Notes under the pieces: model-generated
Databases searched by the model: none
Seen by the model: only the letters and a program-made list of their open reading frames with translations
Told to the model about the DNA's origin: nothing
Part shown: piece by piece, positions 4,676-54,087 of the stretch
Position numbering within the stretch: the stretch's first letter is position 1
Layout of the letters: every line of letters starts with the position of its first letter
Made by a program: the position numbers and the translations under genes
IMG/VR virus record: IMGVR_UViG_3300025121_000023
Span: 32,001 to 96,000 of that record
Source of the DNA: a virus
DNA length: 64,000 nucleotides
Reading direction: 5' to 3' (one strand)

Positions 4676-4676
4676 T

Positions 4677-4982: not shown

Positions 4983-5004
4983 AATTTTTTTTTTACAAAT
5001 TTAA

Positions 5005-5199: not shown

Positions 5200-5210
5200 A
5201 TATATAAATT

Positions 5211-6155: not shown

Positions 6156-6168
6156 AGTTTTTATTTAT

Positions 6169-6435: not shown

Positions 6436-6704
6436 TTCTTTCTTCTTGGTGTATAATCAGGTGTAATTGGTTTATTTTCTGTTAACATATCCCATGATAT
6501 TGACCAACCATCAAAACTTGGTAATCTTGTAAATGGTATTTCTAATCTATCGACATAATAATAAGGATATGGAATGCCAAATAAATAATTCATTTTTGGT
6601 ATTGCCCAATCAACAGTACCTCTTCTACCAATATTCCAATTTTCACCAAATTCTTCTATAAATTCAGCTTCAGTTTTAAATCTATATGGATAATGTTCTG
6701 TCAT
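6432..6704 (-). CDS. array paralog
   Basis: MTEHYPYRFKTE...PDYTPRRKK; ATGA overlap with next copy. Confidence 0.75.
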   Translation of the reverse strand: MTEHYPYRFKTEAEFIEEFGENWNIGRRGTVDWAIPKMNYLFGIPYPYYYVDRLEIPFTRLPSFDGWSISWDMLTENKPITPDYTPRRKK

Positions 6705-6803
6705 TTTATTATATTATCTAAGTTTTTAAAATAATTTTGTAAAGATACAAATTTATTATTATTATTACAAATATAACCTATATTATGTATAATTACGTGT
6801 TCT

Positions 6804-7229
6804 TTATATCCAGTTTTCACCAAATTCTTTTATAAATTCAGCTTTAGTTTTAAATCTATATTGATAATGTTCTTTTATTTTTTTTCTTCTTGGTGTATAA
6901 TCAGGTATATTTGGTAGAATAGTAATATCTAAAAAAAACATTTCAAAACCCATATCATCTCTTAACAATGACCACCAAGGTTCATTTATATTATGTTTAT
7001 ATTTTTCTATAATAGTTAAAGATTTATCTATATTTCTATATAGAAAAGTATTTGAATCTCGTTGCCAAGCAAACTTATAAACTTTAAAATAGTAAGTGCT
7101 TTTAACTAAACTTTCAGCATTTTTAAATAATCTAACTTTGTCTCCTACAAAATATTTAGGTAATTCCCAACCATTTATATCAACTAATTGTCTTATTTTT
7201 TCGTTATCTCTATCTCGTAAATTTAACAT
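6804..7229 (-). CDS. unrelated protein with PDYTPRRK tail fused to a truncated array copy; 5' end probably frameshifted
   Basis: ...PDYTPRRKKIKEHYQYRFKTKAEFIKEFGENWI*; frame is open upstream to about 7310. Confidence 0.55.
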   Translation of the reverse strand: MLNLRDRDNEKIRQLVDINGWELPKYFVGDKVRLFKNAESLVKSTYYFKVYKFAWQRDSNTFLYRNIDKSLTIIEKYKHNINEPWWSLLRDDMGFEMFFLDITILPNIPDYTPRRKKIKEHYQYRFKTKAEFIKEFGENWI

Positions 7230-7327
7230 TTTATTTTTGGGTTTATAATATAGTACTCTTTCTTTTACACCATATTTTAAAATATTTTCTATTATATCTA
7301 ATTCATTAATATATCATATTATCAAAT

Positions 7328-7621
7328 CTAATAACTATATTCTTGATAATATGATGTATTATGTTTATCATTTCTTTTTCTTCTTGGTGTATAATCAGGT
7401 GCTATTGGTTTATTTTCTGTTAACATATCCCAAGATATTGTCCAATAACTTAAACTCTGTAATAATTTATTTTCATCAACATAATAAGGATATGGAATGC
7501 CAAATAAATAATCCATATCGTTATTCCAACCAGATCTTATTTTTTGAAATCTCCAGCGTTCACCAAATTCTTTTATGAATTCAGCTTCAGTCTTAAATCT
7601 ATATGGATAATGTTCTGTCAT
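7328..7621 (-). CDS. array paralog with altered C-terminus
   Basis: One A fewer in the terminal A-tract extends the frame past the usual TGA. Confidence 0.72.
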   Translation of the reverse strand: MTEHYPYRFKTEAEFIKEFGERWRFQKIRSGWNNDMDYLFGIPYPYYVDENKLLQSLSYWTISWDMLTENKPIAPDYTPRRKRNDKHNTSYYQEYSY

Positions 7622-7872
7622 TTCTTTTTTCTTCTTGGTGTATAATCAGGTTTAATTTCTGTTAACATATTCCAAGATATTGACCAACCATCTAATCTTG
7701 ATAACATTTTATTATTTTTATTAACAAAATAAGGATATGGTGTACCAAAAAGATTATTCATTTTTGGTATTGCCCAATCAACACGACCACCTTTATTGAT
7801 ATTCCAATTTTTACCAAATTCTTTTATGAATTCAGCTTCAGTCTTAAATCTATATGGATAATGTTCTGTCAT
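7618..7872 (-). CDS. array paralog
   Basis: MTEHYPYRFKTE...PDYTPRRKKK. Confidence 0.75.
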   Translation of the reverse strand: MTEHYPYRFKTEAEFIKEFGKNWNINKGGRVDWAIPKMNNLFGTPYPYFVNKNNKMLSRLDGWSISWNMLTEIKPDYTPRRKKK

Positions 7873-8144
7873 TTCTTTTTTCTTCTTGGTGTATAATCAG
7901 GTTCAGTTGGTTTATTTTCTGTTAACATATCCCAAGATATTGACCAACCATTTAATTTTGGTAATAATTTATTTTTATCAACAAAATAAGGATATGAAAT
8001 GCCAAATAAATAATCCATACTTGATATCCAATCAACACGACCACCTTTATTGATATTCCAATTTTTACCAAATTCTTTTATGAATTCAGCTTCAGTTTTA
8101 AATCTATATGGATAAGGTTCTTTCATATTTAGTATAATGTCCAA
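7869..8144 (-). CDS. array paralog (likely start at MKEPYPY)
   Basis: MKEPYPYRFKTE...PDYTPRRKKK. Confidence 0.75.
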   Translation of the reverse strand: MDIILNMKEPYPYRFKTEAEFIKEFGKNWNINKGGRVDWISSMDYLFGISYPYFVDKNKLLPKLNGWSISWDMLTENKPTEPDYTPRRKKK

Positions 8145-8515
8145 TTATTTTTATAATACAATAATGTATTATCTTTGAAATTAATATTTTCATAATAAAA
8201 ATGACTAGAAAGTGAAAGTTCTTTTAATGTTTTACTAAATTTTAAAAGTGTTTTATATCTTTCTTTTTCATTTCTAAATACATATGAACATACATTGTTT
8301 CCTTCTGGTTTTTTAGGAAAAATAAATGCATTTGGTGTAAATACTGGCCAAAGACCTTTTTTAATACTAAAAAAATTTTTATAACTATAAAAAATAATAT
8401 CATTATAATAATCAATCAATTTATTATGTGCTTTTATGAATGTAATTTTAATAGCTAATTCACCAATTAATTCTACTTTAATAGATAATTTTATATTTGA
8501 AGATAAATCAGGCAT
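8129..8515 (-). CDS. hypothetical protein, family with 8517..8909 and 19666..20076
   Basis: Shared IKIxF.K and FRNExERYxxLxK. Confidence 0.65.
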   Translation of the reverse strand: MPDLSSNIKLSIKVELIGELAIKITFIKAHNKLIDYYNDIIFYSYKNFFSIKKGLWPVFTPNAFIFPKKPEGNNVCSYVFRNEKERYKTLLKFSKTLKELSLSSHFYYENINFKDNTLLYYKNNWTLY

Positions 8516-8516
8516 A

Positions 8517-8909
8517 TTAATATACTATCCAATTATTATTTAAATATTTAATTTTGTTATTATCATATACTTTATTAATCAATTTAAAATGATCAGAATA
8601 TGAAAATTCTAATAATGCTTTATTTAATCTTACAAGTGTTCTATATCTTTCATCTTCATTTCTAAATACATATGATGATACTCTATTACTATTATTATAA
8701 GATGGTATTGTAAGTCTAGTTGGAGTTATTAACGTTAAATATGAGCTTTTTGTAAAAGTAAATATTTGTTCTTTACTATAAAAAAATGAATCATCAACAC
8801 AACTCAATATATTAGGATGAACTTTGACAAATTTTAATTTTATACTTTTTTGACCGATAAGTTTTATTCTTAAAATCATTTTAATATTTTTATATTCACT
8901 ACCAATCAT
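8517..8909 (-). CDS. hypothetical protein, same family
   Basis: SYVFRNEDERYRTL, NNWxxY end. Confidence 0.65.
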   Translation of the reverse strand: MIGSEYKNIKMILRIKLIGQKSIKLKFVKVHPNILSCVDDSFFYSKEQIFTFTKSSYLTLITPTRLTIPSYNNSNRVSSYVFRNEDERYRTLVRLNKALLEFSYSDHFKLINKVYDNNKIKYLNNNWIVY

Positions 8910-8924
8910 ATCACTTATTTATAA

Positions 8925-9260
8925 TTATTTTAAATTATCAATTTTTTTAAAATCTTTTTCATCAACTTCACTTGACCAAACACTATGTAAATACCAAAAA
9001 GGTTTACATAAATGAATTATATTATCACATTTATCATCCATAAAAAATATTTCTTTTTTTACTAGACTTTCAACAACTTTTTCGGATTTATTTTTAGATA
9101 TTTGTATTTTATCAGCAATGTCAACAATACTTATATTACTTGTTCCAGGATCACCATATAATTCAGATATTAAGGCAAATAGAACTTCTTTTTCTATTTT
9201 AGATATTTCTAATGATTTTATATAAGGTTTACTTATATTTCCGTCGTATCCTATTGGCAT
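8925..9260 (-). CDS. winged-helix DNA-binding protein, paralog of 9264..9560
   Basis: EKxxLFxLIxxLY, IAxxLxxSxxxxxxVIxSLxKK, FWYLH. Confidence 0.6.
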   Translation of the reverse strand: MPIGYDGNISKPYIKSLEISKIEKEVLFALISELYGDPGTSNISIVDIADKIQISKNKSEKVVESLVKKEIFFMDDKCDNIIHLCKPFWYLHSVWSSEVDEKDFKKIDNLK

Positions 9261-9263
9261 AAT

Positions 9264-9560
9264 TTATAAATTTGTAATTATTATTTTATCTTCTTCTATC
9301 ATTTCATTTTTCCATTCTGGATGCAAATACCAAAAAGAATTATTTAAATATATGCAATCTTGATATTCATTTTCACCCACTACTATTACTTCTTTTTTAC
9401 ATAACGAACCAATTACACCTTTAACTTGATTATTAGACATATCTAATTCATTAGCTATTTCTTTAACACCTACATCACTAAATCCAGGTTCAGCATATAA
9501 ATTATTAATTAAAGAAAATAATATCTTTTTTTCTAAATCAGTTAATGTTATGTTTTTCAT
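9264..9560 (-). CDS. winged-helix DNA-binding protein
   Basis: VKEIANELDMSNNQVKGVIGSLCKK HTH. Confidence 0.65.
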   Translation of the reverse strand: MKNITLTDLEKKILFSLINNLYAEPGFSDVGVKEIANELDMSNNQVKGVIGSLCKKEVIVVGENEYQDCIYLNNSFWYLHPEWKNEMIEEDKIIITNL

Positions 9561-10060
9561 TATAAATTATCTATTTGATTTTGTATATTTTTTAATTTTT
9601 CTATAAATTCATTTAATACGTCATATATTAGTTGATATGCATCTTTATTAACTTTCATTAATTCTTTAACTTTTTCTATTTCTTTATATTTTGCTTCTAA
9701 TGAAGTGTGTATATAAAGTCCTAAATCGTTTTTTCTTTTTCTGTTTTGAAATTTAGTATTATAGAAATGTTTACAATATTCTAAACAATTACTTGGTAAA
9801 ATAAATTCATTAAACTTATGTCCAAGATATAATCTACTACAAAAATCAGAATGACTATTTGATGTTATTTGCGTTCCTTCTTGTTCAAGAAGATTATATT
9901 TTTCTTTTAATTTTAAAAATTTAACACTATAATTTTGTTGTCTATTATAAGCAAGTCCAACATGTATTTCTTTAACAGGATAAGGAGTATAATTAGAAAG
10001 TTTGTATATGACATAAACTTTATCAGTTATTCTATAAAAATATAATGGTTTGGTTCTCAT
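9560..10060 (-). CDS. hypothetical protein
   Basis: 166-aa ORF in operon. Confidence 0.6.
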   Translation of the reverse strand: MRTKPLYFYRITDKVYVIYKLSNYTPYPVKEIHVGLAYNRQQNYSVKFLKLKEKYNLLEQEGTQITSNSHSDFCSRLYLGHKFNEFILPSNCLEYCKHFYNTKFQNRKRKNDLGLYIHTSLEAKYKEIEKVKELMKVNKDAYQLIYDVLNEFIEKLKNIQNQIDNL

Positions 10061-10073
10061 AATTTAAATATTT

Positions 10074-10346
10074 TTATTGTGATTGTCTTATTTCGGTTTG
10101 AAAAATAGTTTCTAATTCTGGTACAGGTGCGCCGTTATTTAACATTCCATTATCGTCACCCCATCCCATCGGCTTACTATAATATTCCAACGGTCCGCCA
10201 ATTCTATGATCATCTGGATAAGTATTCCAACTAATTGTATGAAAATCTGTATACATAATACATTCTTTTCTTATATAATCTATTCCATTATGATTGATTA
10301 TATCAATCCATTCTGTTTTGAAATATTCTATACCGTTTCTTATCAT
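10074..10346 (-). CDS. hypothetical protein
   Basis: ORF in operon. Confidence 0.55.
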   Translation of the reverse strand: MIRNGIEYFKTEWIDIINHNGIDYIRKECIMYTDFHTISWNTYPDDHRIGGPLEYYSKPMGWGDDNGMLNNGAPVPELETIFQTEIRQSQ

Positions 10347-10348
10347 AA

Positions 10349-10651
10349 TTATATAGTTTCTAGTTCTTGTAATTGTTTATTAAATTCATAATATTTATCA
10401 ATTGCTTCTTTAGATTGAATAATAGATACTGTTAAAAATCCTTTTTTAATTCCACCTATTCCAAAATACTTTAATCTTGGAATTTCCCAATATCCTTCTG
10501 CGCCAACTGGAATATAACTATTTCTTACAATTTCAAATCCTCTATATTCAATAACTCTGTCATAAGCTTTAATTTCAGTACGTCTTGAACCTTCGTAACG
10601 ATCAAAATCTTTAAGTTTTTCTATGTTTTTAAGATCAAATCTTTTTATCAT
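10349..10651 (-). CDS. hypothetical protein
   Basis: ORF downstream of a TAnnTTTG element. Confidence 0.6.
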   Translation of the reverse strand: MIKRFDLKNIEKLKDFDRYEGSRRTEIKAYDRVIEYRGFEIVRNSYIPVGAEGYWEIPRLKYFGIGGIKKGFLTVSIIQSKEAIDKYYEFNKQLQELETI

Positions 10652-10683
10652 ATCTGTATAATTTGATACAAAGATACGAAAAA

Positions 10684-10893
10684 TTATTTATTTGACAAAA
10701 TTTTAATTTTTTTAGTTCTTAAACATTGTGAACAATATAAATAATTTTTTTCTGTTATATACCAACCATCAGGTATTGGAATAGAATTATTAAATATATC
10801 TATTTCACTAATATGTTTAAAATCAGCAAAATTTTCAAATAAAACAATAATATTACAATTATCACATACAACTGATCTTAAATTAAATCCCAT
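10684..10893 (-). CDS. small Zn-finger protein
   Basis: CDNC...GW...CSQC, basic RxxKIxxL tail. Confidence 0.6.
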   Translation of the reverse strand: MGFNLRSVVCDNCNIIVLFENFADFKHISEIDIFNNSIPIPDGWYITEKNYLYCSQCLRTKKIKILSNK

Positions 10894-11203
10894 TGTTATT
10901 AATATTTTTAATTACATGATTTAATTTTTTTCTTCTAAAATATTCATCACTATAAATATATATATTGAATGTTTTACCATCTTCTATTTCTATAAAGTCT
11001 GATATATATAAATTAAATTTTTTAAATAGCTCTACCTTGAATGCATCAAATTTTAATAAATCCATAGAATTACCTAAAATAAATACTGATATACATCTAA
11101 ATTCAGTATCTGTTATAAAATGAGTTTTAACAATATATTTAGTTTTTTCAATATGATCATTTATTAATTTATTTATATCATATATAATATATTCTATATC
11201 CAT
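10883..11203 (-). CDS. hypothetical protein
   Basis: ORF with RRKKLNHV tail. Confidence 0.55.
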   Translation of the reverse strand: MDIEYIIYDINKLINDHIEKTKYIVKTHFITDTEFRCISVFILGNSMDLLKFDAFKVELFKKFNLYISDFIEIEDGKTFNIYIYSDEYFRRKKLNHVIKNINNNGI

Positions 11204-11206
11204 AAA

Positions 11207-11743
11207 TTATTCAAATTTAATATATTCAGAAGGAATATAATCAGTTAACCAAACTTTATTTTCTGAAATGTAAAACTTATAACCGTCTTGATACATTTTT
11301 TCAGTATCAATAATTAATATAATAGGTTCTTCATTTTTAGAATGTCTTAAACCAACATTACGTGCTGTAGATTTATTATCAGACAAATGAATATATTTTC
11401 TACTCATCTTCTTTAATCCTTTAAGATAAATGTCTTTAATATTTTCTTTTTTTGTACCATGAAATAAAATTTTTGGAGGAATAGATTCCGGAAAATCTAT
11501 ATTAACAAATTCTAAAGAATGTCCTTGATTCGCTCTTATTTTTGAACCATCTTCGTTATAAACAAATCTTTGTTTATCATTCGTTAAAACTATTTCATTT
11601 AATGTTAATTTATCTATTTTTAATTTAATTAGTAATGTTTTTACATCAACCCAACCCTGGGCATCCATTTCTAAATTTTCGTTATTGTGTCGTAATAAGT
11701 AAGATATCTTTCTTCCTATATTTAATAAATTTTGTTCTTTCAT
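11207..11743 (-). CDS. kptA: RNA 2'-phosphotransferase (Tpt1/KptA)
   Basis: LLRH, DKQRF, IRANQGHS, FHGT, YIHLS, N.VWL. Confidence 0.94.
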   Translation of the reverse strand: MKEQNLLNIGRKISYLLRHNNENLEMDAQGWVDVKTLLIKLKIDKLTLNEIVLTNDKQRFVYNEDGSKIRANQGHSLEFVNIDFPESIPPKILFHGTKKENIKDIYLKGLKKMSRKYIHLSDNKSTARNVGLRHSKNEEPIILIIDTEKMYQDGYKFYISENKVWLTDYIPSEYIKFE

Positions 11744-11756
11744 AATGCAAATTTAA

Positions 11757-12416
11757 TTAAAATTTTTCTAATTCAACTTTGAAATCTTTTATATTCAGGT
11801 TGTTATTTGAATTGTCATATGTTTCTTCATCTAATATTTCTGTCCATTCTGAACCTAAATTTTTTATTCTTTGTATAACTCTTTTGGAATCATACATTAT
11901 TCCATTTGGGTAAATTTTATATTTTTTGTTTTGGCAATGTATAATAGAATTAGGTTTACTTTCATATAAATTTTTACCGTTAAAAAATACTCCACTCGAT
12001 GATAAATCTACATTTACTAATAAATTAAAAAATGCTTTAATCATTCTATCTTGTCTTAGTTTTTCATCTTTACAAAATGGTATATATGGTGTTATAAGTT
12101 GAACAATGTGACTATTTTTATTAATATAATTTAAAGGTTGAAAAATAAATTTAATATCTTTATACATTTTATATATATGTGGATTAAAAAAAGGTATTTG
12201 TCTATATCCTTGTCTTTCAAGAATAATCATAGCAGCTTTTTTAGATTGTGGTAAACATAATATATCAACATCATTTATTTTATAAGGTTGTCCAGAAATA
12301 ATATCTCTTAATGCACCACCAAATACTACTAAATAATCGGTACAAAAAAATAAATAAGAACTATTAAATTCTAAATATTCATCTAAATTTTTTTGTATAA
12401 ATTCTGTAGTTATCAT
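11757..12416 (-). CDS. nucleotidyltransferase (CCA/poly(A) polymerase head-like)
   Basis: VFGGALRD...NDVDI motif. Confidence 0.65.
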   Translation of the reverse strand: MITTEFIQKNLDEYLEFNSSYLFFCTDYLVVFGGALRDIISGQPYKINDVDILCLPQSKKAAMIILERQGYRQIPFFNPHIYKMYKDIKFIFQPLNYINKNSHIVQLITPYIPFCKDEKLRQDRMIKAFFNLLVNVDLSSSGVFFNGKNLYESKPNSIIHCQNKKYKIYPNGIMYDSKRVIQRIKNLGSEWTEILDEETYDNSNNNLNIKDFKVELEKF

Positions 12417-12886
12417 TTATTTATTAATTTATCAATTTTTAATCTTCGTAAATAACCTGACATAAAGTCATCTTTATTAATGATATTATCATCTATATGA
12501 ATTATACATTCCATCTTAGGTTTACAAATATTTATGTATCCTGTTCCTAATTTACAAGCATCGTAATAATCTCTATCGTCTATTAGTTTTTCTTTATTAG
12601 GGCAATTTTTTTTACAAAATTCTTCTAATTTATATTTTTCTTGTCTTTTAATATGTAAAACTTTGGATTCTCGATGTGTTATATTCAATGATATATCAGT
12701 ACATTGAATATTTTTAACAACTATATCATTTTCGATATCTTTCATTATATAACCATAACCATCTTCTCCATCAATTATAAATAAATGACCTTTTGTAAAT
12801 ATACCGTAAGATATTCCAATATCTTTTAATAATATTACAACATCATTTTTTTTATATGTATTTAGATAATCATTAGGAATAAACAT
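12413..12886 (-). CDS. hypothetical Cys-containing protein
   Basis: ORF with LRRLKIDKL tail. Confidence 0.6.
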   Translation of the reverse strand: MFIPNDYLNTYKKNDVVILLKDIGISYGIFTKGHLFIIDGEDGYGYIMKDIENDIVVKNIQCTDISLNITHRESKVLHIKRQEKYKLEEFCKKNCPNKEKLIDDRDYYDACKLGTGYINICKPKMECIIHIDDNIINKDDFMSGYLRRLKIDKLINK

Positions 12887-13296
12887 TATTTTAAATTTTT
12901 AATAATTATATTTATTTTCTTTTTGCGTAAATAATTAAGTTTAAATTTCTGATAATCTTTAGGTTTAGGTGTTCCCCAAAAATGACCATCTTCTTCAAAT
13001 ATAATTTTATCAATATTAAATTTAACTTCATTTTCTAAAAAAGCTTTCATATCAAAATTATCCATAAATGTATATAAATGTAGTGAAATTTCATCTTCAA
13101 TTACATTCCAATCTTCATAGTATTCATATAAAAATACATCAAAATCTTTACTATTTTTTATAGATTCTTTATCAACTTTTTTAGCAATTTCAATATGATT
13201 TTTAATCATATCTATTTGTAAATCAGTTAAATATTCTTTTAAAATAATAAAACTACTTGAACTACTATTACTTACAAATCCACTTCTAATTTTCAT
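12886..13296 (-). CDS. MKIRxGFVSNSSSSSF-family phage protein
   Basis: Characteristic N-terminus. Confidence 0.7.
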   Translation of the reverse strand: MKIRSGFVSNSSSSSFIILKEYLTDLQIDMIKNHIEIAKKVDKESIKNSKDFDVFLYEYYEDWNVIEDEISLHLYTFMDNFDMKAFLENEVKFNIDKIIFEEDGHFWGTPKPKDYQKFKLNYLRKKKINIIIKNLK

Positions 13297-13584
13297 TTTT
13301 TTCTTCTATTGTAAAATATTCTTGTATAGAATCATCTTCTAATATCAAATATGATTGCATTGTTAAATAATTCCAGGAAAATTTTTCTGTTTCTCGTTTA
13401 GTATCTTCCATGCAAAGATGTTCATCATCTTCTGTATATTTTAATTTATAATTTATTTTCATATTTTTATATATTTATTTAATGGTTGTTAACTTTTACT
13501 ATAGTTATTTTATCTAATCAATTTGTCTTTTTATTCTTAGTTTAGCTGATTCGGAATTTATTGGTAATAATTTATATTTTATAT

Positions 13585-13824
13585 CTACCATGAAATTGTT
13601 GAACGATATTCATCGTCATCTATTTTGTATCCACGTTCGATAAGAATATTATAAATAGCTGGAAATCGGGATATTAAAATATAAAAACAAGTATATGAAA
13701 AATGACCTTCATCCGCTCTTGATTTAATATTGTTAATTATGGATTTAAAATAGAATTTTTCTAATTTTTTTTGCACAATTGGTTGTTTTTTTTCTGCCAA
13801 TTTTCTTGCTTCTTTTGCATTCAT
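13585..13824 (-). CDS. hypothetical protein
   Basis: MNAKEAR...RGY..ISW small phage-type ORF. Confidence 0.6.
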   Translation of the reverse strand: MNAKEARKLAEKKQPIVQKKLEKFYFKSIINNIKSRADEGHFSYTCFYILISRFPAIYNILIERGYKIDDDEYRSTISW

Positions 13825-14048
13825 TATTCAAAAATTTTATTAGTTAATAATTCGTATGTATCTTTTAAGTCATTAATATCATTTAATGTTTTAATATATT
13901 CAGTATCACCATATACTTCATAAAATGATGAAAGTATACATAATTTTTGATAAAATTTAACTTCATATTCAAAATATCCATCATACCAAGTATTTTCATC
14001 ATATTTAAAAAATGTATTTTGATTATTTAATTCTATTTTTTTTAACAT
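13824..14048 (-). CDS. hypothetical protein
   Basis: ORF in operon. Confidence 0.5.
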   Translation of the reverse strand: MLKKIELNNQNTFFKYDENTWYDGYFEYEVKFYQKLCILSSFYEVYGDTEYIKTLNDINDLKDTYELLTNKIFE

Positions 14049-14084
14049 CGATTTTTTATTTTTTTATTATAGAAATTATTAAAT

Positions 14085-14333
14085 TTACCACCCCAAACAG
14101 TGTTCTTTTCTATTTAAATATTTTGAATATAAATCTAAAATTTCATTTAATTCGTTTTCATCTATGCCTTTGTCTAATAATTTATTTTTGAACATTAAAT
14201 ATTTATATTCTTCAGGATACATAGTTTTTTCAAATTGTTCTCCAGTTGATTTTTCAACAATAACTCTTAAAAACCCATATTTTGTGGGGGTTTTAAGTTC
14301 TTTTTCACCTTCTAATATTTTTATTATTTTCAT
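14085..14333 (-). CDS. hypothetical protein
   Basis: ORF in operon. Confidence 0.55.
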   Translation of the reverse strand: MKIIKILEGEKELKTPTKYGFLRVIVEKSTGEQFEKTMYPEEYKYLMFKNKLLDKGIDENELNEILDLYSKYLNRKEHCLGW

Positions 14334-14539
14334 AAATATAAAATGCTTAATGTTGATATTAATAACGTTAAACTAATTGATAATAATACACTTATTACAA
14401 TAATTTTATCAATTTGTTTATTAAAATAATATTCTGAATTATCTGTTTTAATTTCTTTTTTAATTGTATTTATTGACTTATTGTACAACAATATTGTTAA
14501 TATCATGATTATTATACTTATTGATACTATGAAAATCAT
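14330..14539 (-). CDS. small two-TM membrane protein
   Basis: Two hydrophobic segments. Confidence 0.55.
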   Translation of the reverse strand: MIFIVSISIIIMILTILLYNKSINTIKKEIKTDNSEYYFNKQIDKIIVISVLLSISLTLLISTLSILYL

Positions 14540-14609
14540 AATTTATATTTTTTGGTTAAAATTATCACTTACAAATATAGTAAATAAAAATTATTTTTCA
14601 AAATATTAT

Positions 14610-23326: not shown

Positions 23327-24460
23327 TTAATTAATTCCGAAATATCCTTTTAAAGCTTTTTTACCTTCTTCTTCCATAATATTTATAATTCTTCTATTAT
23401 TTTCTAATATTATAATATTTAAATAATAAAGAATTTTAATAAATTTATCTAATTCACTTGTAGTTATTTTTGCACCACTTAATTCAGATAATTCTACAAT
23501 TGTATTTGTAGTAGGAATTCTATCACCTTTTTGTTTAACTTTACCATAAATTAATTCTAATAAGAAATTAAATTTATGCCATTTTCTAAATTCGGGAGTA
23601 CTAATAATAGTATCTTCATATTCTAATATGACTTTATAATCATAAAATTTATCAAAATAAATACCTAACATAATTATAATTTCTATTGCACTTGAAATTA
23701 AAATTAATGCCCAAATATTTGTTTTATTTTCTTCTACACTTGATTCTAATTTAGTAGTTTCAGTTTGAATAATTCTGTTAGCATCAGAATCTCTTCTATC
23801 TTCGTAACTTCTGATTAATGCATTGTTATTATCTATTTTAATATTATTAGCACTTATTAAATTGGTATATTTAGTTTTATAATTAGTTTTAGATGCTTGA
23901 TTTGAATAATCAGTATTTTGTTCATTTAATAATTTATTTTCATCCATTAAAGGTTTAATATATTGTTCAAAATAAAATGTATTTATTGAATCTACTTTCG
24001 TATTTATTTTATTTTCTGTTGTAGTTTTAAATACTTCTTGATTATCAACAAATCGTTTAGCACCATTTAAACTAAAATAAAAAGAACCTAATACAAGTAT
24101 TGATACACCTATTAAAAACCCTACCATAGAAGATTTAAATAAATCAAATCCTCGTTTAATAAATTCAAGACTAAACATCCCAAATACAAATCTTTTTAAT
24201 AATTCAAACATTGTTAAAAAAAATATTATTCCAAATGTTATAAAAATACTATTACTAATATCATTAAATGAACTAAAAAATATGGCTTGTAAAAAGAAAA
24301 AAGCAAGAAATACAGATACACCGTTACCAAACCAAGAAAACCAATATAAAAATTTATCTACCCATTTAAATCTTTCTGAATAACTCTTTACTAACGTTCT
24401 ACTTTTTAACTCGATATATTTATCGAAATTTATTTTTGATTTGTTTATATTGTCAAACAT
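23327..24460 (-). CDS. multi-pass membrane protein with coiled coil
   Basis: Four hydrophobic segments. Confidence 0.65.
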   Translation of the reverse strand: MFDNINKSKINFDKYIELKSRTLVKSYSERFKWVDKFLYWFSWFGNGVSVFLAFFFLQAIFFSSFNDISNSIFITFGIIFFLTMFELLKRFVFGMFSLEFIKRGFDLFKSSMVGFLIGVSILVLGSFYFSLNGAKRFVDNQEVFKTTTENKINTKVDSINTFYFEQYIKPLMDENKLLNEQNTDYSNQASKTNYKTKYTNLISANNIKIDNNNALIRSYEDRRDSDANRIIQTETTKLESSVEENKTNIWALILISSAIEIIIMLGIYFDKFYDYKVILEYEDTIISTPEFRKWHKFNFLLELIYGKVKQKGDRIPTTNTIVELSELSGAKITTSELDKFIKILYYLNIIILENNRRIINIMEEEGKKALKGYFGIN

Positions 24461-24499
24461 ATGTATTTTTATTTTATTTTAATTATGTATTTTATATAG

Positions 24500-24612
24500 T
24501 TCTGTATTTTGATGACAAATAATGACATCTGATACATTTTTTTCCTAATTCAACGACAAAACTATTGTTTCATCTCCAAAGGCGTTAATTTGGGTGAACT
24601 CGACCCTATTTA
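24500..24612 (-). ncRNA. putative omegaRNA overlapping the tnpB 3' end
   Basis: Position plus GC-richer stems (GGGTCGAGTTCACCC, AACG...CGTT); boundaries uncertain. Confidence 0.5.
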
Positions 24613-25744
24613 TTTTATCATCTTTAATTGATTTCAATCTTATACCTTCATTTTTAATGTTTATTGCTGCGTTTAAATCCCTGTTTAGTACAGAATTGCA
24701 TTTTGAACAAGTCCATTCTCTATCTTTCATAGTTAATTTATCATTTTTAACTCCACAACAACTACATTTTTTTGATGATGGAAAAAATCTATCAATTTGT
24801 ATTACTTCTCTATCATACCATATAGCTTTGTATTCTAAAATTGTTTTAAATTTATTTAATGATAATTCTTGAATTGATTTAGCTAAATGATGATTTTTTA
24901 ACATTCCACTTACATTTAAGTCTTCAATAACTATAGTTTGGTTTTCTCTAAGTAATTGATTAACTACACTATGTAAATAGTTTTCTTTTATATTTGTTAT
25001 TTTTTCATGATATTTTGATAATTTTATCCTTATTTTTTGTTTATTTTTTGAACCTTTTTGTTTTCGTGAAAGCAACTGATTTAACCTTTTAAGTTTTTTT
25101 TCATTATTTCTAGTTGATTTTATATTTTTAAATACTTGGTTATCAGATGATACGATAAAATCTTTTATACCTAAATCAATACCTATAATATTATTTTTAG
25201 GTTTTTGTAATATTTTATTTGGCTTATCAATTAAAATGCTAAAATAATATTTATTTGATTTAGTTTTAGTTAATGTACCAGATTTAATTAAATATTTATT
25301 TTTATTTAAATAAATTTCATCTTGTCTTGAACATTTAAAATGAATATCTTTTAATGGTCTAATTATATTTATTCGATTTCCATTGATTTTACCGATGGCA
25401 TCAACAGGAAATCTACAAGATTGTTTGTTGTGTTTTGATTTAAATTTTGGAAATCCATTACCATTACTAAAAAATGATTTATAAGCAATATCTAAATTAA
25501 CTAAACTCTGTTGTAAAACCTTTGAATGGCTATCTTTTAACCAATTAAATTCTTCGATTGCTTTTAAATTAGTTAAATATTTTCCTGTTTCTACAAAAGA
25601 AACTGATTTTTTATGATTATTATATTGATCAATTTTATGAGCTAAACAATTGTTATAAACAAATCTGGATGATCCAATTAATTTATTCACATAAATTGTT
25701 TGTTCATTATTTAAATATAATCTTGTTTTTATTGCTTTTAACAT
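24545..25744 (-). mobile_element. tnpB: TnpB RNA-guided nuclease (IS200/IS605/IS607 type), no adjacent tnpA
   Basis: N-terminal HTH (RFVYN), RuvC-I GIDLGIK, RuvC-II IEDLNV, CSCC/CSKC Zn ribbon, RuvC-III RDLNAAIN. Confidence 0.93.
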
Positions 25745-25964
25745 TTTTAAATTATTGTTAGTTTTTTACTTACATTATATATTAAATAAAAAATATGATA
25801 TTTTTCCATTTTAAAAAAGTGATTATAATTGACAATATTTTACATTATTTGTCGTTAAAAAATATAAATATACTTAATACTTTTTACTTATATATTTATT
25901 ATAATAAATAGTTTATTTAAAAACAATTTTTTTATATATAATTAATATAAAACTAAATATATAG

Positions 25965-48717: not shown

Positions 48718-49596
48718 TTAAATTTTTTCGCCACATTTTGGGCAATAATTAAATTTACGGTTTCTCAATCTATAACCGCAATCGCTACAATAATCTCGTA
48801 TTTTAAAATCATATTCTTCTTTTTGTGATACTGGTTTAAGTTGGAATTCAACTATATAAAATGGATGATTTTCAAATTCTATTTCTACTTGATGAAAATC
48901 TTGATTAGATTCACTTCCTTTTTCAATTCTTCCGGTTTCTTCTAAACTTTCATTTATTTTAGTAATTTCACTATCAAAATTAACATATATAGGTGAATAA
49001 TATGAAGAAGCTGTTGTTGTAACAAAATCAGTACCAGCAGTAGAATTTATAAGTGCATTATAAGAATAATGATTATATATTCTTGAATTAGAATTCTTAG
49101 AATTAATATCAGTAAAAGTTCCTTTTAATTCTGATTTATCTGTTCTTTTACGTTTACGATTACCTTTTCCTGGTTTTTGACTATTTGTATAGATATACGT
49201 ATTAGAACTCGTATAGGTTTGAACTTGTTTTTCTTTAAAGAATTTAATTTCAATTATACCATTATTTTCGACAGCTTTTTTAGAAGCTTCGTTACCTTTA
49301 TCGTATGTATATGTTTCAAATATCATACGTTTTTTGTCATCTACAAATCGGTCTAATGTAGTGACTTCGCCTGGATTTAAAATTAATAAATTATTAGAAA
49401 ACTTTTTATTTAATCCAATTTGAACACCAACCTTTTCGCTCAATGGATTGAATAAGCGAATTGCAAATTCTTGTCTATTTTCCAAAAAGATAATGTTGTT
49501 TTGATAAGTTTTTGTTTCGTCAAGGGAACTTGTCCTTGCATTTCTTGATAGTATTACCGCAGAGGGCATACTATCGTTTAAACGATAATGTGTCAT
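48718..49596 (-). CDS. hypothetical protein with C-terminal zinc ribbon
   Basis: CSDCG...CPKCG. Confidence 0.7.
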   Translation of the reverse strand: MTHYRLNDSMPSAVILSRNARTSSLDETKTYQNNIIFLENRQEFAIRLFNPLSEKVGVQIGLNKKFSNNLLILNPGEVTTLDRFVDDKKRMIFETYTYDKGNEASKKAVENNGIIEIKFFKEKQVQTYTSSNTYIYTNSQKPGKGNRKRKRTDKSELKGTFTDINSKNSNSRIYNHYSYNALINSTAGTDFVTTTASSYYSPIYVNFDSEITKINESLEETGRIEKGSESNQDFHQVEIEFENHPFYIVEFQLKPVSQKEEYDFKIRDYCSDCGYRLRNRKFNYCPKCGEKI

Positions 49597-49811
49597 TTTA
49601 TAAATTTTATTTTTTGTTTGTGAGTTGCTAGTTTTTTTCTTGCTAAATTAACAAGTTTAAGCCTTTTTACTGACTCAAAACCAACAAAACCAAATTTATC
49701 TTACATATATATATAATTTATATGCCCCGTCAAAGAAAACCGTTAAATCTTTATTTTATGTGATGAATTTGACTTTTTTGGCTTTCATTATTTAATATAT
49801 ATAATAATTAA

Positions 49812-50074
49812 ATAAAAGTTCTTTGAAATGATTTAATGGTTTTGATCTACAAACCTAGATTAAGTAAAATCATTGAGGTTTAAGTATGTAAATACTTGAT
49901 AGTCAAACATTTAACGAAAACCAAGTTAAGTGTCATTAAAAATGTTTAAAAATATTTTTAAACTGTGTGTCAGGGACTGATTTCGCAGTATAAACAAAAA
50001 GACGGTGAGGCGTTGACAATAGTCAAGTCTATGAAACGTTGAAACACATTAATATTTATTTGATGTGTAGTTCA
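49812..50074 (+). ncRNA. stand-alone structured RNA with TnpB omegaRNA/right-end-like 3' half
   Basis: ORF-free; AT-rich promoter-like motif at 49791; multiple hairpins; ends in terminal hairpin followed by TAGTTCA. Confidence 0.55.
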
Positions 50075-50101
50075 TATAATAGTTTAATTATTTTTAATAT
50101 A

Positions 50102-50488
50102 TTAATTCATTTTGCACATTACATCTTTTATTTTTAAATATCTAGTTTCTAAAGGATTTAGGTATCTAAATCTACTATTTTTATATGTTTTTTTTATATC
50201 AAAATCATTTATAATATGTACAACATTTTCATCACCATCTATAACAGTATAGGTTTTACCGATTTTTACCCCAATTACATCTTTAGATCGATGATATTTG
50301 AAAAATGAACCACGAACATCAATACATATTATTATATCGTTTTTTTTAAAAGCCATTTTTATTTCTAATTTTGAGTTAATGAATCCTGGATTACATACTA
50401 AGTCGAATGTTAGTATTTTTTGTATATCTACTGTTCCACGTGGAACATTTTTAAATACCATTTCTAATGAAATTATTTTATTTTTCAA
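50102..50488 (-). CDS. hypothetical protein
   Basis: ORF containing the parS palindrome; RYLKIKDV tail. Confidence 0.55.
   Translation of the reverse strand: MKNKIISLEMVFKNVPRGTVDIQKILTFDLVCNPGFINSKLEIKMAFKKNDIIICIDVRGSFFKYHRSKDVIGVKIGKTYTVIDGDENVVHIINDFDIKKTYKNSRFRYLNPLETRYLKIKDVMCKMN
50432..50447. promoter_or_regulatory. parS site, second copy
   Basis: TGTTCCACGTGGAACA, identical to 2081-2096. Confidence 0.75.
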
Positions 50489-50852: not shown

Positions 50853-50985
50853 ATTATATTCTTTTTTAAAAATCCTAATCTACTATATGTATATTATATG
50901 AACTACATAATCTTAAGTTTAAATTATTTTTAAATTTCTAAATTGTCTGTTTTTATTTTAATATATAAAAATAAAACTTATTGTA

Positions 50986-52581
50986 ATGATTTTGTCTAAG
51001 TATGTTAATATAAAGATTTCTAATAATTTAATTAATTATTATACTATTTTAAATTATGAATTTAATTCTAATGAAATTATAAAAGTATTAGTTAAAGATT
51101 TACCTAAAAACAGTAGTCATAAAGTTAAAGTTAAATGTGATATTTGCAATAATGAAAAAGAAATATCATTAAATAGATATATAATTAATACTAAAAATAA
51201 AACATTACCTTATGCATGTAGTAGAATGTGTGCTGAAATAAAAAATAAAAATACGTGTTTAAAAAAATATGGAGTTGATAATATATCAAAATTGGATTTT
51301 ATTAAAAATAAAAAAGAAAAAACTTGTTTAGATAATTTTGATGTTAAGTATCCACAACAATCTAATGAAATTTTTTTAAAATCAAAAAAAACTAAAAAAG
51401 AAAAATATAATAACGAAAATTATAATAATTCGAAAAAAAGAAAAAAAACTAATATAGATAAATATGGTTTCATATCACCAACACAAAATGAACATATTAT
51501 TAAAAAAATAAAAGATAAACAATTTATATTTTATAAAAATATTATATTAAATAAATATAAACATTTAAATATAATAGATTATGATATTGATGATAAATAT
51601 ATTTTAAAATGTGATTGTGGAAAAAATCATAATTTCAAAATACATTATAAATTAATATGGCATAGATCTAAAAACAATAGTCCTTTATGTACTATATGCA
51701 ATCCGATTAGCAAAAATATATCAGGATTAGAAATATCATTATTAAATTTTATAAAAGAAAACTATAAAGAAGAAATTATTATAAATAATAGAAATATAAT
51801 AAATCCTTATGAATTAGATATTTATTTACCCGATTTAAAATTAGCATTTGAATTTAATGGACTATATTGGCATAATGAATTAAATAAAGATAAAAATTAT
51901 CATAAAAATAAATCTGATTTATGTGAAGAAAAAGGAATTCAATTAATTCATATTTACGAAGACGATTGGATTTATAAACAAGATATAATTAAATCAATGA
52001 TATTAAATAAGTTAGGTAAAACATCAAATAGAATATTTGCAAGAAAAACTGAAATAAAGGAAGTAACAGATAACAATTTAGTTAGAGAATTTTTAGAAGA
52101 AAATCACATTCAAGGATTTGTTGGTTCAAAAGTTAAAGTAGGATTATTTTATAAAGATGAATTAGTTAGTTTAATGACTTTTGGTAAAACCAGAAAACCA
52201 CTCGGGCAAAAAAATAATGATAAATCATATGAAATGTTAAGATTTTGTAATAAACTAAATACAAATGTAATTGGAGGGGCAAGTAAACTATTTGAATATT
52301 TTATTAAAAATTATGAATTTGAAGAAATAATAACATATGCAGATAGAAGTCATTCGAATGGTAAATTATATAAAATATTGGGATTCAAATTTATACATAA
52401 AACCGATTCAAATTATTATTATATTATAGATGGAATAAAACATTATAGATTTGGATTTAGAAAAGATATTTTAGTTAAAGAAGGATATGATGCAAACAAA
52501 ACAGAACACGAAATTATGTTAGAAAGAAATATTTATAGAATTTATAATTCTGGTAATTTAAAATTTAAATATTTAAGATAA
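50986..52581 (+). CDS. free-standing endonuclease (Hef-like), paralog of 42154..43800
   Basis: Highly similar C-terminal half. Confidence 0.75.
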   Translation: MILSKYVNIKISNNLINYYTILNYEFNSNEIIKVLVKDLPKNSSHKVKVKCDICNNEKEISLNRYIINTKNKTLPYACSRMCAEIKNKNTCLKKYGVDNISKLDFIKNKKEKTCLDNFDVKYPQQSNEIFLKSKKTKKEKYNNENYNNSKKRKKTNIDKYGFISPTQNEHIIKKIKDKQFIFYKNIILNKYKHLNIIDYDIDDKYILKCDCGKNHNFKIHYKLIWHRSKNNSPLCTICNPISKNISGLEISLLNFIKENYKEEIIINNRNIINPYELDIYLPDLKLAFEFNGLYWHNELNKDKNYHKNKSDLCEEKGIQLIHIYEDDWIYKQDIIKSMILNKLGKTSNRIFARKTEIKEVTDNNLVREFLEENHIQGFVGSKVKVGLFYKDELVSLMTFGKTRKPLGQKNNDKSYEMLRFCNKLNTNVIGGASKLFEYFIKNYEFEEIITYADRSHSNGKLYKILGFKFIHKTDSNYYYIIDGIKHYRFGFRKDILVKEGYDANKTEHEIMLERNIYRIYNSGNLKFKYLR

Positions 52582-54087
52582 TTCTTTTTCTAATTGTTTT
52601 AGTTCTCTTTCATAATCTTTTAATTCTTCATTAGCATCCATCATCATTTTTTTATATTTTTTACGTTCTTTATAAATTTCAGCCATAACTTGTTTAACTA
52701 CACCATCTTCATTTTTAAATACAGCACCATTTAATGTTATGATATCATCTTTATCTAATTGAATTTTATGACCATTAAATATTGAATATACTGGTTCATC
52801 AGTATTATGTAATTGTTTAATTATATCATAAATTGTTTTGCCTTTATCTTTTAATAATTGTCCTTTATAACTATCAGCACTAATATTAAATTGTCTCATT
52901 GTAGTCGGATACAATGATGCAAAATCGAAACAACAAGTCCAACTATTCATTCCAACAATAGGGTCTTTAACCCAACCACCTTTAACTAATAATTCAACAT
53001 CGTTTGTAACATCACTATGTGTATTATCTTTAACAAATACTACATTTTTTTCATTTCTCATTTTACTTCTTAATATTCCTTCAGTAACGGGTAATGTTTT
53101 AAAAGCATCTGTTATTTTAACTTTTGATAATGTAGATATACCATATAAAACATCAATATATCTTTGTTTATTGTGTATTTGTTGTACTAGAATTGAATCG
53201 ACAGCATTGTATAAAACAAATTTAGTATAATCATTTGCATATAAATATTTTAAATTTCCTTCATAATTAATTTTTTTCACACCTAATATATTTTGAGATA
53301 CAAAATCTAGTGAATTAGACTCCTTGACCTTAATTGTTGAATCCCATTTTGCATATAATTCCATATAATCTACTATTATTCTATGTGCAGGAAGTTCAGA
53401 ATTATCATTTTCTTCCCATGCTTTTCTCAATACACCAGTAAAAGAAGATATTGTCGGATCAATTCCTAAATTTCGTGCTCTATTAACAAGATACACCCAA
53501 TCATAACTAATTACATACCAACCTGTTATAACTGGCATCTTTGGTATAAGAACTTTGAAAAAATTCAGTAACATATCATATTCACTATCATATTGTTTAT
53601 ATAGAAATTCATATTTTGTACCGAATTTTTCAAATTGGTTATTAATGTTACTTTCTACAGAATCAGATTGTGATTTATTAAATTTTTTAGTTCCTATAAC
53701 AAGTACTTTATTTTTATTAACTATTGATATAGTTTGAACTTCCCCGTTTGCTTTTAATGGATTAATTTTTTCATCTAAAATCTCATTTTCTATATCCACA
53801 AAAAATATTTCAGGTTCATTATATTCGAATATCATTTCTTTTTCTTCATTAGGTAATGCATCTAAAAAATCATAAACACTATAACGGTTGGGATATCGGC
53901 TGTAAATTTCTTTCACCGTATTACCATTCCAGGTGACAAATTTACCATGTCTATCTCTATCATCTTCTTCACATATTATAAATTTTGTCGGATTTGGCCA
54001 ATTATAATATTTAAGTTTGATACTACCATGTTTATCTATATAACTTACAATAAGTTTTTGTGATCTAAATTCATAATCTACGAGCAT
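52573..54087 (-). CDS. family B DNA polymerase, exonuclease plus motif A part (split gene)
   Basis: ExoI VDIE, ExoII GW....YD, ExoIII YNAVD, motif A DFASLYP; motifs B and C absent. Confidence 0.85.
   Translation of the reverse strand: MLVDYEFRSQKLIVSYIDKHGSIKLKYYNWPNPTKFIICEEDDRDRHGKFVTWNGNTVKEIYSRYPNRYSVYDFLDALPNEEKEMIFEYNEPEIFFVDIENEILDEKINPLKANGEVQTISIVNKNKVLVIGTKKFNKSQSDSVESNINNQFEKFGTKYEFLYKQYDSEYDMLLNFFKVLIPKMPVITGWYVISYDWVYLVNRARNLGIDPTISSFTGVLRKAWEENDNSELPAHRIIVDYMELYAKWDSTIKVKESNSLDFVSQNILGVKKINYEGNLKYLYANDYTKFVLYNAVDSILVQQIHNKQRYIDVLYGISTLSKVKITDAFKTLPVTEGILRSKMRNEKNVVFVKDNTHSDVTNDVELLVKGGWVKDPIVGMNSWTCCFDFASLYPTTMRQFNISADSYKGQLLKDKGKTIYDIIKQLHNTDEPVYSIFNGHKIQLDKDDIITLNGAVFKNEDGVVKQVMAEIYKERKKYKKMMMDANEELKDYERELKQLEKELS

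What the first reader, a model, noticed from the sequence alone, without database searches (positions are those of the whole stretch)
49770..50100. Stand-alone ~260-nt ncRNA ending in a TnpB omegaRNA-like scaffold, with no adjacent nuclease
Seen: ORF-free segment after TTTAATATATA, starting with boxA-like AAGTTCTTTGAAA, then hairpins (AAGTAT-GTAA-ATACTT; GGTTTT/AAAACC; TTGAC-AATA-GTCAA; ACACATTAA/TTGATGTGT) and ending TAGTTCA. From pattern recall, 49965-50074 (CAGGGACTGA...TATAAACAAAAA..GTGAGGCGTTG...TCTATGAA...GAA...TAGTTCA) resembles IS200/IS605 tnpB right ends. It differs from the 3' end of the tnpB at 24545. Inference: a non-autonomous element or a domesticated trans-acting guide RNA whose guide would be the ~16-20 nt after TTCA.
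Basis: partly seen in the sequence, partly recalled or inferred. Interest (0 to 1): 0.7.

Follow-up and report, generated by a model that had tools for sequence, protein, structure and literature searches.

The report
Gene-less transposon carrying a guide RNA
The structured RNA-like segment is a small, protein-less IS200/IS605-type transposon in a large phage genome that has lost its tnpB nuclease gene but kept the promoter and guide-RNA (omegaRNA) scaffold; this kind of element is already described, here found multiplying in phages.

Summary

**What it is.** Window 49722-50075 (+) is a 354-nt mobile element. It is preceded by TTTAT and ends exactly at ...GTAGTTCAT.

**Evidence that it is mobile.**
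- At least 22 homologous copies lie in related phage contigs, in at least 18 different flanking contexts. All lose similarity right after TTCAT, and all complete copies lose it right before TTTAT.
- Both ends carry similar subterminal hairpins in the same orientation. This is the IS200/IS605 arrangement.

**Evidence that the RNA is omegaRNA-like.**
- The last 116 nt fold into four helices. Seven base pairs show compensatory changes.
- A covariance model built from these copies hits the 3' ends of bona fide tnpB genes in related contigs (E 1e-5 to 1e-4).
- One variant is a clean internal deletion of tnpB.

So this is a tnpB-less, PATE-like derivative: left end, tnpB promoter, omegaRNA scaffold, right end. 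The guide would be the flank from 50076 onward.

**Novelty.** PATEs that encode omegaRNAs are already described (Meers et al. 2023), so this is a new member of a known kind.

**What is not shown.**
- Transcription.
- Use in trans by a TnpB. The window's own TnpB is only about 40% identical to the TnpBs that carry the related right ends, and its 3' end does not match the model.
- A TnpA transposase. None was found.
- An empty site. None was found.

The window copy's left-end hairpin has decayed.

The parts
49717..49721 (+). TTTAT: conserved pentanucleotide abutting the left end. Proposed insertion target and TnpB TAM.
   Evidence: Present immediately left of the point where similarity begins in every complete copy examined: types A, B, C and D, the full tnpB element L072, and the mini relic. 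Its assignment to the flank rather than the element is by analogy with IS608. No empty site was found.
49722..49777 (+). Left end (LE) of the element, with a decayed subterminal hairpin (about 49738-49763) followed by GATGAATTTGAC.
   Evidence: Homologous to the LE of sister copies (L057, L058) and to the LE of the full tnpB element in G002 (L067). As ssDNA the window LE folds at -2.0 kcal/mol (z about 0). The sister copies fold at -8.3 and -5.7.
49778..49805 (+). Promoter-like site TTGGCT-16-TATAAT, with an alternative TTGACT-18-TAATAT at 49769-49798.
   Evidence: 10 of 12 consensus match. Conserved in the type A copies. A similar TATATAAT-containing stretch lies between the LE and the tnpB start codon in L067. 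Function as a promoter is inferred.
49812..49959 (+). About 150-nt structured leader of four hairpins, specific to type A copies.
   Evidence: Consensus fold of 3 type A variants gives 47 pairs, 3 with compensatory changes. It has no counterpart in type B copies, where TATAAT sits directly before the core. Its role is unknown.
49960..50075 (+). OmegaRNA-like scaffold core: four helices plus invariant linkers TAAACAAAAA, CGGTGAGGCGT and AGTCTATGAAACGTTGAAAC.
   Evidence: Model R1 scores 136 bits here. 97% of pair cells are standard pairs, and 7 pairs have changes on both sides, against near zero when the partners are slid. R1 hits tnpB 3' ends in L067, L068 and L072.
50045..50075 (+). Right-end subterminal hairpin (50045-50069) plus terminal AGTTCAT. 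TTCAT at 50071-50075 is the proposed TEM (the motif at the element's own last bases).
   Evidence: Similar to the LE hairpin region in type B. All copies end here, and the flanks differ beyond it. GAA 5' of the hairpin pairs with UUC of TTCAT in the consensus fold.
50076..50095 (+). Predicted guide: the flank transcribed past the right end (ATAATAGTTTAATTAT...).
   Evidence: Inferred from how TnpB omegaRNAs are built. The flank is different in each of 18 or more copies. No second TAM-flanked match exists in the window.
24545..25744 (-). The only tnpB gene found in this 112.6-kb virus record. A candidate trans partner, but not the cognate by sequence.
   Evidence: Pfam HTH_OrfB_IS605, OrfB_IS605 and Cas12f1-like_TNB. 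It is the only TNB match in G000. It is 40-41% identical to the TnpBs whose right ends match the core, and the D/E/D columns are conserved. R1 does not match its own 3' end.

Best explanation
**What it is.** Window 49722-50075 is a non-autonomous, protein-less (PATE-like) derivative of an IS200/IS605-family tnpB-only insertion sequence. It sits in a large AT-rich phage genome. An internal deletion removed tnpB. What remains is the left end, the tnpB promoter and leader, the omegaRNA scaffold that overlapped the 3' end of tnpB, and the right end.

**Shown here.**
- The element boundaries.
- Multi-copy mobility.
- The end architecture.
- A conserved RNA fold.
- Homology to tnpB right ends.

**Inferred, not shown.**
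- The promoter drives a transcript of about 260 nt that runs through the right end into the flank.
- A TnpB encoded elsewhere in the phage or host trims and binds the roughly 116-nt scaffold plus about 16-20 nt of flank.
- The complex cuts DNA reading TTTAT followed by that flank. That is the same site in a genome or sister copy lacking the element.
- Recombinational repair then restores or spreads the element.
- Movement to new sites would need a Y1 TnpA supplied in trans.

The window copy has a decayed left-end hairpin, so it is probably no longer excisable.
For: **Copies and boundaries.** Exact-word scans found 3, then 7, then 22 true homologues.
- All end at GTAGTTCAT followed by unrelated sequence. 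There are 18 or more distinct right flanks.
- There are up to 3 copies per 44-kb contig.
- Several copies sit at contig ends.
- Left flanks diverge just before TTTAT.
- The G002 copy shares only 49698-50077 with the window.

**End architecture.** LE and RE carry similar hairpins in the same orientation, preceded by related sequence: ACGTAAAAC at the LE and ACGTTGAAAC at the RE. TAAA and TGAA are exact complements of TTTA and TTCA.

**RNA fold.** 33 pairs, 97% of cells paired, and 7 pairs with compensatory changes. Only 6 of 500 shuffles reach that count. The slid controls give about zero. Folding is strand-asymmetric.

**Link to tnpB.** Model R1 hits three places.
- The 3' end of a 417-aa TnpB ORF in G002, whose stop codon lies inside the terminal hairpin and whose element also ends GTAGTTCAT.
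- A 145-aa TnpB remnant in G005.
- A 387-aa TnpB in L072, whose LE hairpin and adjoining sequence are identical to those of the gene-less types B and D and nearly so to type C.

**Deletion derivatives.**
- Type C equals the LE plus the first 8 tnpB codons fused to the NAAKNI... tail.
- The type D scaffold matches the 3' end of another TnpB lineage.
- The G002 tnpB element's LE is homologous to the window's LE.

Against:
- No Rfam family matches.
- No Y1 TnpA (PF01797) in any held record. All of them are fragments.
- No empty site was found, so the split between TAM and element rests on analogy.
- The type A/B core was found only as stand-alone copies. Its similarity to tnpB-linked right ends is modest (33-45 bits against about 130).
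- The window's own TnpB has an unrelated 3' end, so no cognate nuclease has been identified in this genome, of which only about 23% is sampled.
- The window copy's LE hairpin is decayed.
- Covariation rests on only 7 distinct variants from about 3 lineages.
Confidence: 0.85

Rival explanations
1. Inert relic. The window copy is a dead remnant of an IS200/IS605 element. Any transcript is a by-product of the leftover promoter, and no nuclease uses it.
For: - The LE hairpin is decayed in the window copy only.
- The record holds one copy.
- The only TnpB in the record has a different 3' end.
- No TnpA was found.
- The guide has no other target.
Against: - The core of the window copy is intact, scoring as high as the best copies (136 bits).
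- The family keeps invariant linkers and compensatory pairs outside the hairpin that TnpA would need.
- Eleven type B copies in different contexts are identical over 121 nt. This indicates recent activity of the family.
- A promoter is retained directly in front of the core in type B.
Confidence: 0.3
2. Domesticated, phage-beneficial guide RNA. The RNA is a fixed trans-acting guide that a phage TnpB, or a nuclease-dead TldR-like relative, uses to cut or repress a host or competitor target.
For: - It stands alone with its own promoter.
- The LE is decayed, so the copy is fixed in place.
- A tnpB is present in the same record.
- TldR precedents exist (bioRxiv 10.1101/2023.11.30.569447, listed).
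Against: - The guide is just the local flank, as in every mobile copy.
- No TAM-flanked second match exists in the window.
- The window TnpB keeps the D/E/D catalytic columns.
- Copies are not syntenic between related phages.
Confidence: 0.08
3. DNA-level element only. The conserved core serves TnpA recognition and transposition as single-stranded DNA. The apparent RNA structure is a by-product.
For: - The terminal hairpin and the GAA/TTC pairing are what a Y1 transposase would read.
- A 49-nt LE-RE mini relic exists.
Against: - About 70 nt upstream of the RE hairpin has no LE counterpart. This covers helices 1-3 and the invariant linkers. It is nevertheless conserved, with compensatory changes.
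- That same region is homologous to the omegaRNA-coding 3' part of tnpB genes.
Confidence: 0.05
4. An unrelated regulatory RNA of the phage, such as a boxA/nut-type antitermination leader, an sRNA, or a 5' UTR element for a neighbouring gene.
For: - It lies between two genes.
- It has strong + strand structure.
Against: - Both neighbouring genes are on the other strand.
- Copies sit in unrelated contexts.
- There is no Rfam match.
- Its homology is to transposon ends.
Confidence: 0.02

Closest known systems
Palindrome-associated transposable elements (PATEs) of the IS200/IS605 family that encode omegaRNAs (Dyall-Smith et al. 2011, PMC3119063; Meers et al. 2023, PMC10055086)
   Same: - No protein-coding gene.
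- LE and RE with subterminal hairpins.
- Multi-copy.
- Retains the omegaRNA region next to the RE, with the guide supplied by the flank.
- Presumed dependence on TnpA and TnpB in trans.
   Different: - Found in large phage genomes from metagenomes rather than bacterial or archaeal chromosomes.
- At least four scaffold types (A-D) share one kind of ends.
- Type A carries an extra 150-nt structured leader.
- No TnpA has been identified.
Canonical tnpB-only IS605-family elements with an overlapping omegaRNA (ISDra2, ISGst; Karvelis 2021, Meers 2023)
   Same: - The scaffold ends exactly at the RE.
- The guide is the adjacent flank.
- The target motif lies on the other side of the element.
- Full-length relatives with the same ends exist in related contigs (L067, L072).
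   Different: - tnpB is deleted.
- The RNA is driven directly by the former tnpB promoter.
- The scaffold sequence matches no Rfam model.
TldR guide RNAs: TnpB-like nuclease-dead repressors (Wiegand et al., bioRxiv 10.1101/2023.11.30.569447)
   Same: An omegaRNA-derived guide acting away from transposition would look like a stand-alone scaffold.
   Different: - TldR guides lie next to their protein gene and match a promoter target.
- Here no protein gene is adjacent, the guide is the insertion flank, and the element is still mobile as a family.
Free-standing homing endonuclease genes of T4-like phages
   Same: - Selfish elements scattered in intergenic regions of a large phage that also carries several HNH-type endonuclease genes.
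- A homing mode during co-infection is conceivable.
   Different: - Targeting would be RNA-guided and would depend on a nuclease encoded elsewhere.
- Homing was not tested.

Membership tests
IS200/IS605 family, non-autonomous (PATE-like) | Subterminal hairpins at both ends in the same orientation, without terminal inverted repeats | tested here: met
   In type B, the LE reads ACACACAAGTCTTTAGCTTGTGTG and the RE reads ACACACAAATCTTTAGTTTGTGTGT, both on the same strand. In the window copy the RE hairpin is intact and the LE hairpin is decayed.
IS200/IS605 family, non-autonomous (PATE-like) | Insertion 3' of a short conserved target, with a related motif as the last bases of the element and no target-site duplication | tested here: inconclusive
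   TTTAT precedes every complete copy, and TTCAT ends every copy but one lineage (TTAAT). No duplication of flanks was seen. No empty site was found to fix the exact junction.
IS200/IS605 family, non-autonomous (PATE-like) | Several copies in unrelated genomic contexts | tested here: met
   18 or more distinct right flanks, and up to 3 copies per contig.
IS200/IS605 family, non-autonomous (PATE-like) | No protein-coding gene inside the element | tested here: met
   No ORF of 60 aa or more in 49597-50101. Type B is only about 205 nt.
IS200/IS605 family, non-autonomous (PATE-like) | A Y1 (HUH) TnpA transposase available in trans | tested here: not met
   PF01797 is absent from G000, G002-G007. 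All are fragments (2-45% complete), and the host genome is unknown, so absence is not established.
TnpB omegaRNA | Derived from, or homologous to, the 3' end of tnpB plus the RE | tested here: met
   R1 hits the 3' ends of TnpB ORFs L067 (E 6e-5), L068 (1e-5) and L072 (7e-6). Type C is a clean internal deletion of tnpB.
TnpB omegaRNA | Scaffold ends at the transposon boundary, and the guide is the adjacent flank | tested here: met
   Similarity ends at 50075 in all copies. Guide use itself is inferred.
TnpB omegaRNA | Conserved secondary structure | tested here: met
   Only 7 distinct variants were available.
TnpB omegaRNA | Transcribed, processed and bound by a TnpB that then cuts a TAM-flanked target | not testable with these tools
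No RNA-protein assay is available.
Rfam-curated RNA families (including IS605-orfB, HEARO and ribozymes) | Score at or above a family's gathering threshold | tested here: not met
   No match at gathering across the whole window. Only noise at E up to 10 on 49400-50400.
TldR-type domesticated guide RNA | Adjacent nuclease-dead TnpB homologue, and a guide matching a distant regulatory target | tested here: not met
   No adjacent protein gene on the + strand. The window TnpB keeps D/E/D. There is no second target in the window.

The most novel reading that the evidence does not exclude
The scattered tnpB-less elements act together as a dispersed set of guide-RNA genes for a single phage-encoded TnpB. 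Each copy would programme cutting of its own empty site in co-infecting relatives. This would give RNA-guided homing and exclusion of competitor phages, a functional analogue of free-standing homing endonucleases and a possible step towards array-like guide organisation.
Probability: 0.15. Interest if true: 0.75.

Novelty: new member of a known kind. Interest (0 to 1): 0.42.

Why it matters
The finding shows that omegaRNA-only IS200/IS605 derivatives proliferate inside large phage genomes. At least four scaffold types share one kind of transposon ends, alongside several TnpB lineages.

This gives a compact natural system for two questions:
- Are PATE omegaRNAs really used in trans?
- Do TnpB/omegaRNA elements home between co-infecting phages in the way homing endonucleases do?

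It also supplies new short scaffolds (about 116 nt) and a candidate TTTAT TAM for biochemical testing. Conceptually it adds an example rather than a new principle.

Tried and rejected
- **Rfam.** Gathering threshold on the whole window, and E up to 10 on 1 kb: nothing.
- **GenBank phages, distant blastn.** No match.
- **Group I intron or split-PolB idea.** The neighbouring PolB and homing-endonuclease genes suggested an intron. I rejected this because the structure is on the opposite strand to polB, there is no Rfam intron hit, and copies lie in unrelated contexts.
- **Empty-site search.** Relatives of both flanking genes were sought in IMG/VR and none was found. Flank BLAST among all held loci gave only self matches.
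- **Synteny with the 292-aa neighbour.** One related contig has a type C copy about 0.4 kb from a homologue, but at a different junction. I treated this as coincidence or a hot spot.
- **Cognate TnpA.** Not found.
- **Other copies of the window TnpB's right end in IMG/VR.** None.
- **Bacterial genomes with the LE hairpin.** One short MAG scaffold, carrying an LE-promoter module only.
- **Guide off-targets in the window.** Not above chance.
- **boxA reading.** No supporting test.

Full report
**Setting**

The window is bases 32001-96000 of a 112,560-bp IMG/VR virus record that CheckV rates about 23% complete. It is 19-28% G+C. It encodes a split family-B DNA polymerase, several HNH-type homing endonuclease-like genes and one TnpB.

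The finding lies in a 505-nt gap (49597-50101) between two minus-strand ORFs. The gap holds no ORF of 60 aa or more.

**Observation**

The + strand of 49800-50100 folds at -70.8 kcal/mol, against -47.4 ± 4.5 for shuffles (z -5.2). The - strand gives z -1.6. Rfam gives nothing at gathering thresholds and only noise at E up to 10. The record holds one copy.

**It is a mobile element**

An exact 17-mer from the core found three true homologues in IMG/VR. All are identical up to ...GATGTGTAGTTCAT and unrelated after it. Further scans raised this to about 22 homologues in viral and metagenome contigs.

- There are 18 or more different right flanks.
- There are up to three copies in one 44-kb contig.
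- Several copies lie at contig ends, as expected for an assembly-breaking repeat.

A related 84-kb contig (G002) carries a full copy at 84% identity. It shares only window 49698-50077 with the window, so the neighbouring genes differ.

On the left, all complete copies lose similarity just before TTTAT followed by A(A/T)G. In the window, TTTAT is 49717-49721, the element is 49722-50075, and the flank starts at 50076.

**Two main forms**

- Type A: about 355-370 nt. Found in the window, G002 and a 233-kb contig.
- Type B: about 205 nt. Eleven copies in different contexts are identical over the last 121 nt.

**The ends are of the IS200/IS605 type**

In type B the left end has the hairpin ACACACAAGTCTTTAGCTTGTGTG about 20 nt inside the boundary. 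The right end has ACACACAAATCTTTAGTTTGTGTGT 7 nt inside. Both are on the same strand. They are preceded by related sequence: ACGTAAAAC at the left end and ACGTTGAAAC at the right end.

The words TAAA and TGAA, which sit 2 nt 5' of the hairpins, are exact complements of TTTA (left flank) and TTCA (last bases of the element). This is the logic by which IS608-type TnpA reads its cleavage sites. That reading is my inference from established knowledge of IS608, not a test. The consensus fold also pairs GAA with the UUC of TTCAT.

In the window copy the right-end hairpin is intact. The left-end hairpin has decayed: -2.0 kcal/mol as ssDNA (z about 0), against -8.3 and -5.7 in the two sister copies.

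**The core is a conserved structure**

Seven distinct variants of the last 116 nt give a consensus of 33 pairs in four helices.

- 97% of pair cells form standard pairs.
- 7 pairs show changes on both sides. Only 6 of 500 shuffles reach this count.
- The covariation score is 0.27. It is 0.06 or less when the partners are slid by 1-3 columns.

The compensatory pairs lie in helices 1 and 3, which have no left-end counterpart, as well as in the terminal hairpin. The linkers TAAACAAAAA, CGGTGAGGCGT and AGTCTATGAAACGTTGAAAC are invariant. The evidence rests on about three lineages, so it is supportive rather than overwhelming.

**Link to TnpB**

A covariance model of the core (R1) scores 136 bits on the window. 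It also hits the 3' ends of tnpB genes in related contigs.

| Locus | TnpB | R1 hit | Element end |
|---|---|---|---|
| G002 / L067 | 417-aa ORF with HTH_OrfB, OrfB_IS605 and TNB domains; stop codon inside the terminal hairpin | E 6e-5 | GTAGTTCAT |
| G005 / L068 | 145-aa C-terminal remnant | E 1e-5 | GTAGTTAAT |
| L072 | intact 387-aa ORF | E 7e-6 | GTAGTTAAT |

In L072 the element begins TTTAT|ATGACGGAACGTAAAAC-hairpin, so its LE hairpin and adjoining sequence are identical to those of the gene-less types B and D and nearly so to type C.

Further links:

- Type C (L069) consists of that left end, the 5' UTR and the first eight tnpB codons, fused to the last codons (NAAKNIRNFG...) and the right end. 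It is a clean internal deletion.
- Type D has the same left end and a related right end. Its internal scaffold is homologous to the 3' end of yet another TnpB lineage, L089.
- A 49-nt element with the left end joined directly to the right end also exists.
- The left end of the G002 tnpB element (CCTAAATCTTCAGTTTAGG, then GATGAATTG) is homologous to the type A left end.

The window element is therefore a tnpB-less derivative that keeps the left end, promoter and leader, omegaRNA scaffold and right end.

**Expression signals**

A TTGGCT-16-TATAAT site lies at 49778-49805. It is conserved in type A copies. In type B a TATAAT sits directly before the core. No terminator is predicted.

Type A also has a 150-nt leader of four hairpins with a few compensatory changes. 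Its role is unknown.

**Partner proteins**

- The record's only TnpB (24545-25744, minus strand) has the three TnpB Pfam domains and conserved D/E/D columns.
- It is 40-41% identical to the TnpBs of L067 and L072. R1 does not recognise its own 3' end.
- The exact type A/B core was found only as stand-alone copies. The nuclease that would load it is therefore not identified.
- No Y1 transposase was found in any held record. All are small fragments.
- The 16-nt predicted guide has no TAM-flanked second match in the window.

**Comparison with what is known**

Meers et al. describe protein-less PATE-like IS200/IS605 elements. [quoted passage not shown] Zedaveinyte et al. show a PATE with IStron ends. 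TnpB genes in phages are also on record.

My literature searches found no description of omegaRNA-only elements expanding inside phage genomes. That is an extension of setting, not of kind.

**Verdict**

Its 'non-autonomous element' reading is supported. The 'domesticated trans-acting guide' reading is not shown.

- Identity as a tnpB-less IS200/IS605 derivative with an omegaRNA scaffold: about 0.85.
- That the RNA is actually used in trans by a TnpB: roughly even odds.
- That the window copy itself is still mobile: unlikely, given its left-end hairpin.

My tests agree on structure and promoter, and replace the boxA idea with the transposon leader.

Noticed in passing
window 50892-50907 (-): A second exact TGTAGTTCATATAATA lies between two divergent genes, without the hairpin or core. 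A similar AGTTCATATATAAT precedes a type B copy in L038. It could be a chance match, a solo right-end scar, or a promoter-like word.
   Followed up: partly
L033 about 3940-4055 (-), L021 about 1450-1560 (-), L082 1560-1660 (-): The left-end-plus-promoter module (TTTAT|ATG..GTCAAAGAAAAC-hairpin-GATGAATTTGAC) occurs on its own or with other downstream sequence in related contigs. It also occurs in a 2.9-kb scaffold binned as a Saccharofermentanales MAG. These may be further cargo variants, or a hint about the host.
   Followed up: partly
L069 726-985 (-) and 1390-2286 (+): In G005 a type C element lies about 0.4 kb upstream of, and divergent from, a 38%-identical homologue of the window's 292-aa gene (48718-49596). 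The orientation matches the window's arrangement, but the junction differs.
   Followed up: partly
L030 about 2940-2990 (-): A 49-nt mini element in which the left-end start (TTTAT|ATGACGGAACG) is joined directly to the right-end hairpin and TAGTTCAT. It looks like recombination between the related sequences 5' of the two hairpins.
   Followed up: no
L042 2047-2543 (-): A distant TnpB-like ORF (29% identical to the window TnpB over 127 aa) ends in a right end identical to type B's. Its upstream 3' coding region is unrelated to the core. At least four TnpB lineages therefore share this kind of ends.
   Followed up: partly
window 24440-24545 (-) and 25745-25880 (-): The window's own tnpB has its own hairpins at both ends (GATGTCATTATTTGTCATC downstream, GACAAATAATGTAAAATATTGTC upstream, with TTTAT nearby). 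No other copy of its right end exists in IMG/VR, so its boundaries are undefined.
   Followed up: partly
L043 about 4000-14600: The right flank of one type B copy belongs to a long array of repeats with units of about 70 nt at 75-87% identity. It is probably a repetitive structural protein gene.
   Followed up: no
window 50986-54087: The N-terminal half of family-B DNA polymerase (52573-54087, minus strand) overlaps the end of a convergent 531-aa HNH-type homing endonuclease gene. No second PolB half lies in the 112-kb record (PF00136 hits once).
   Followed up: partly
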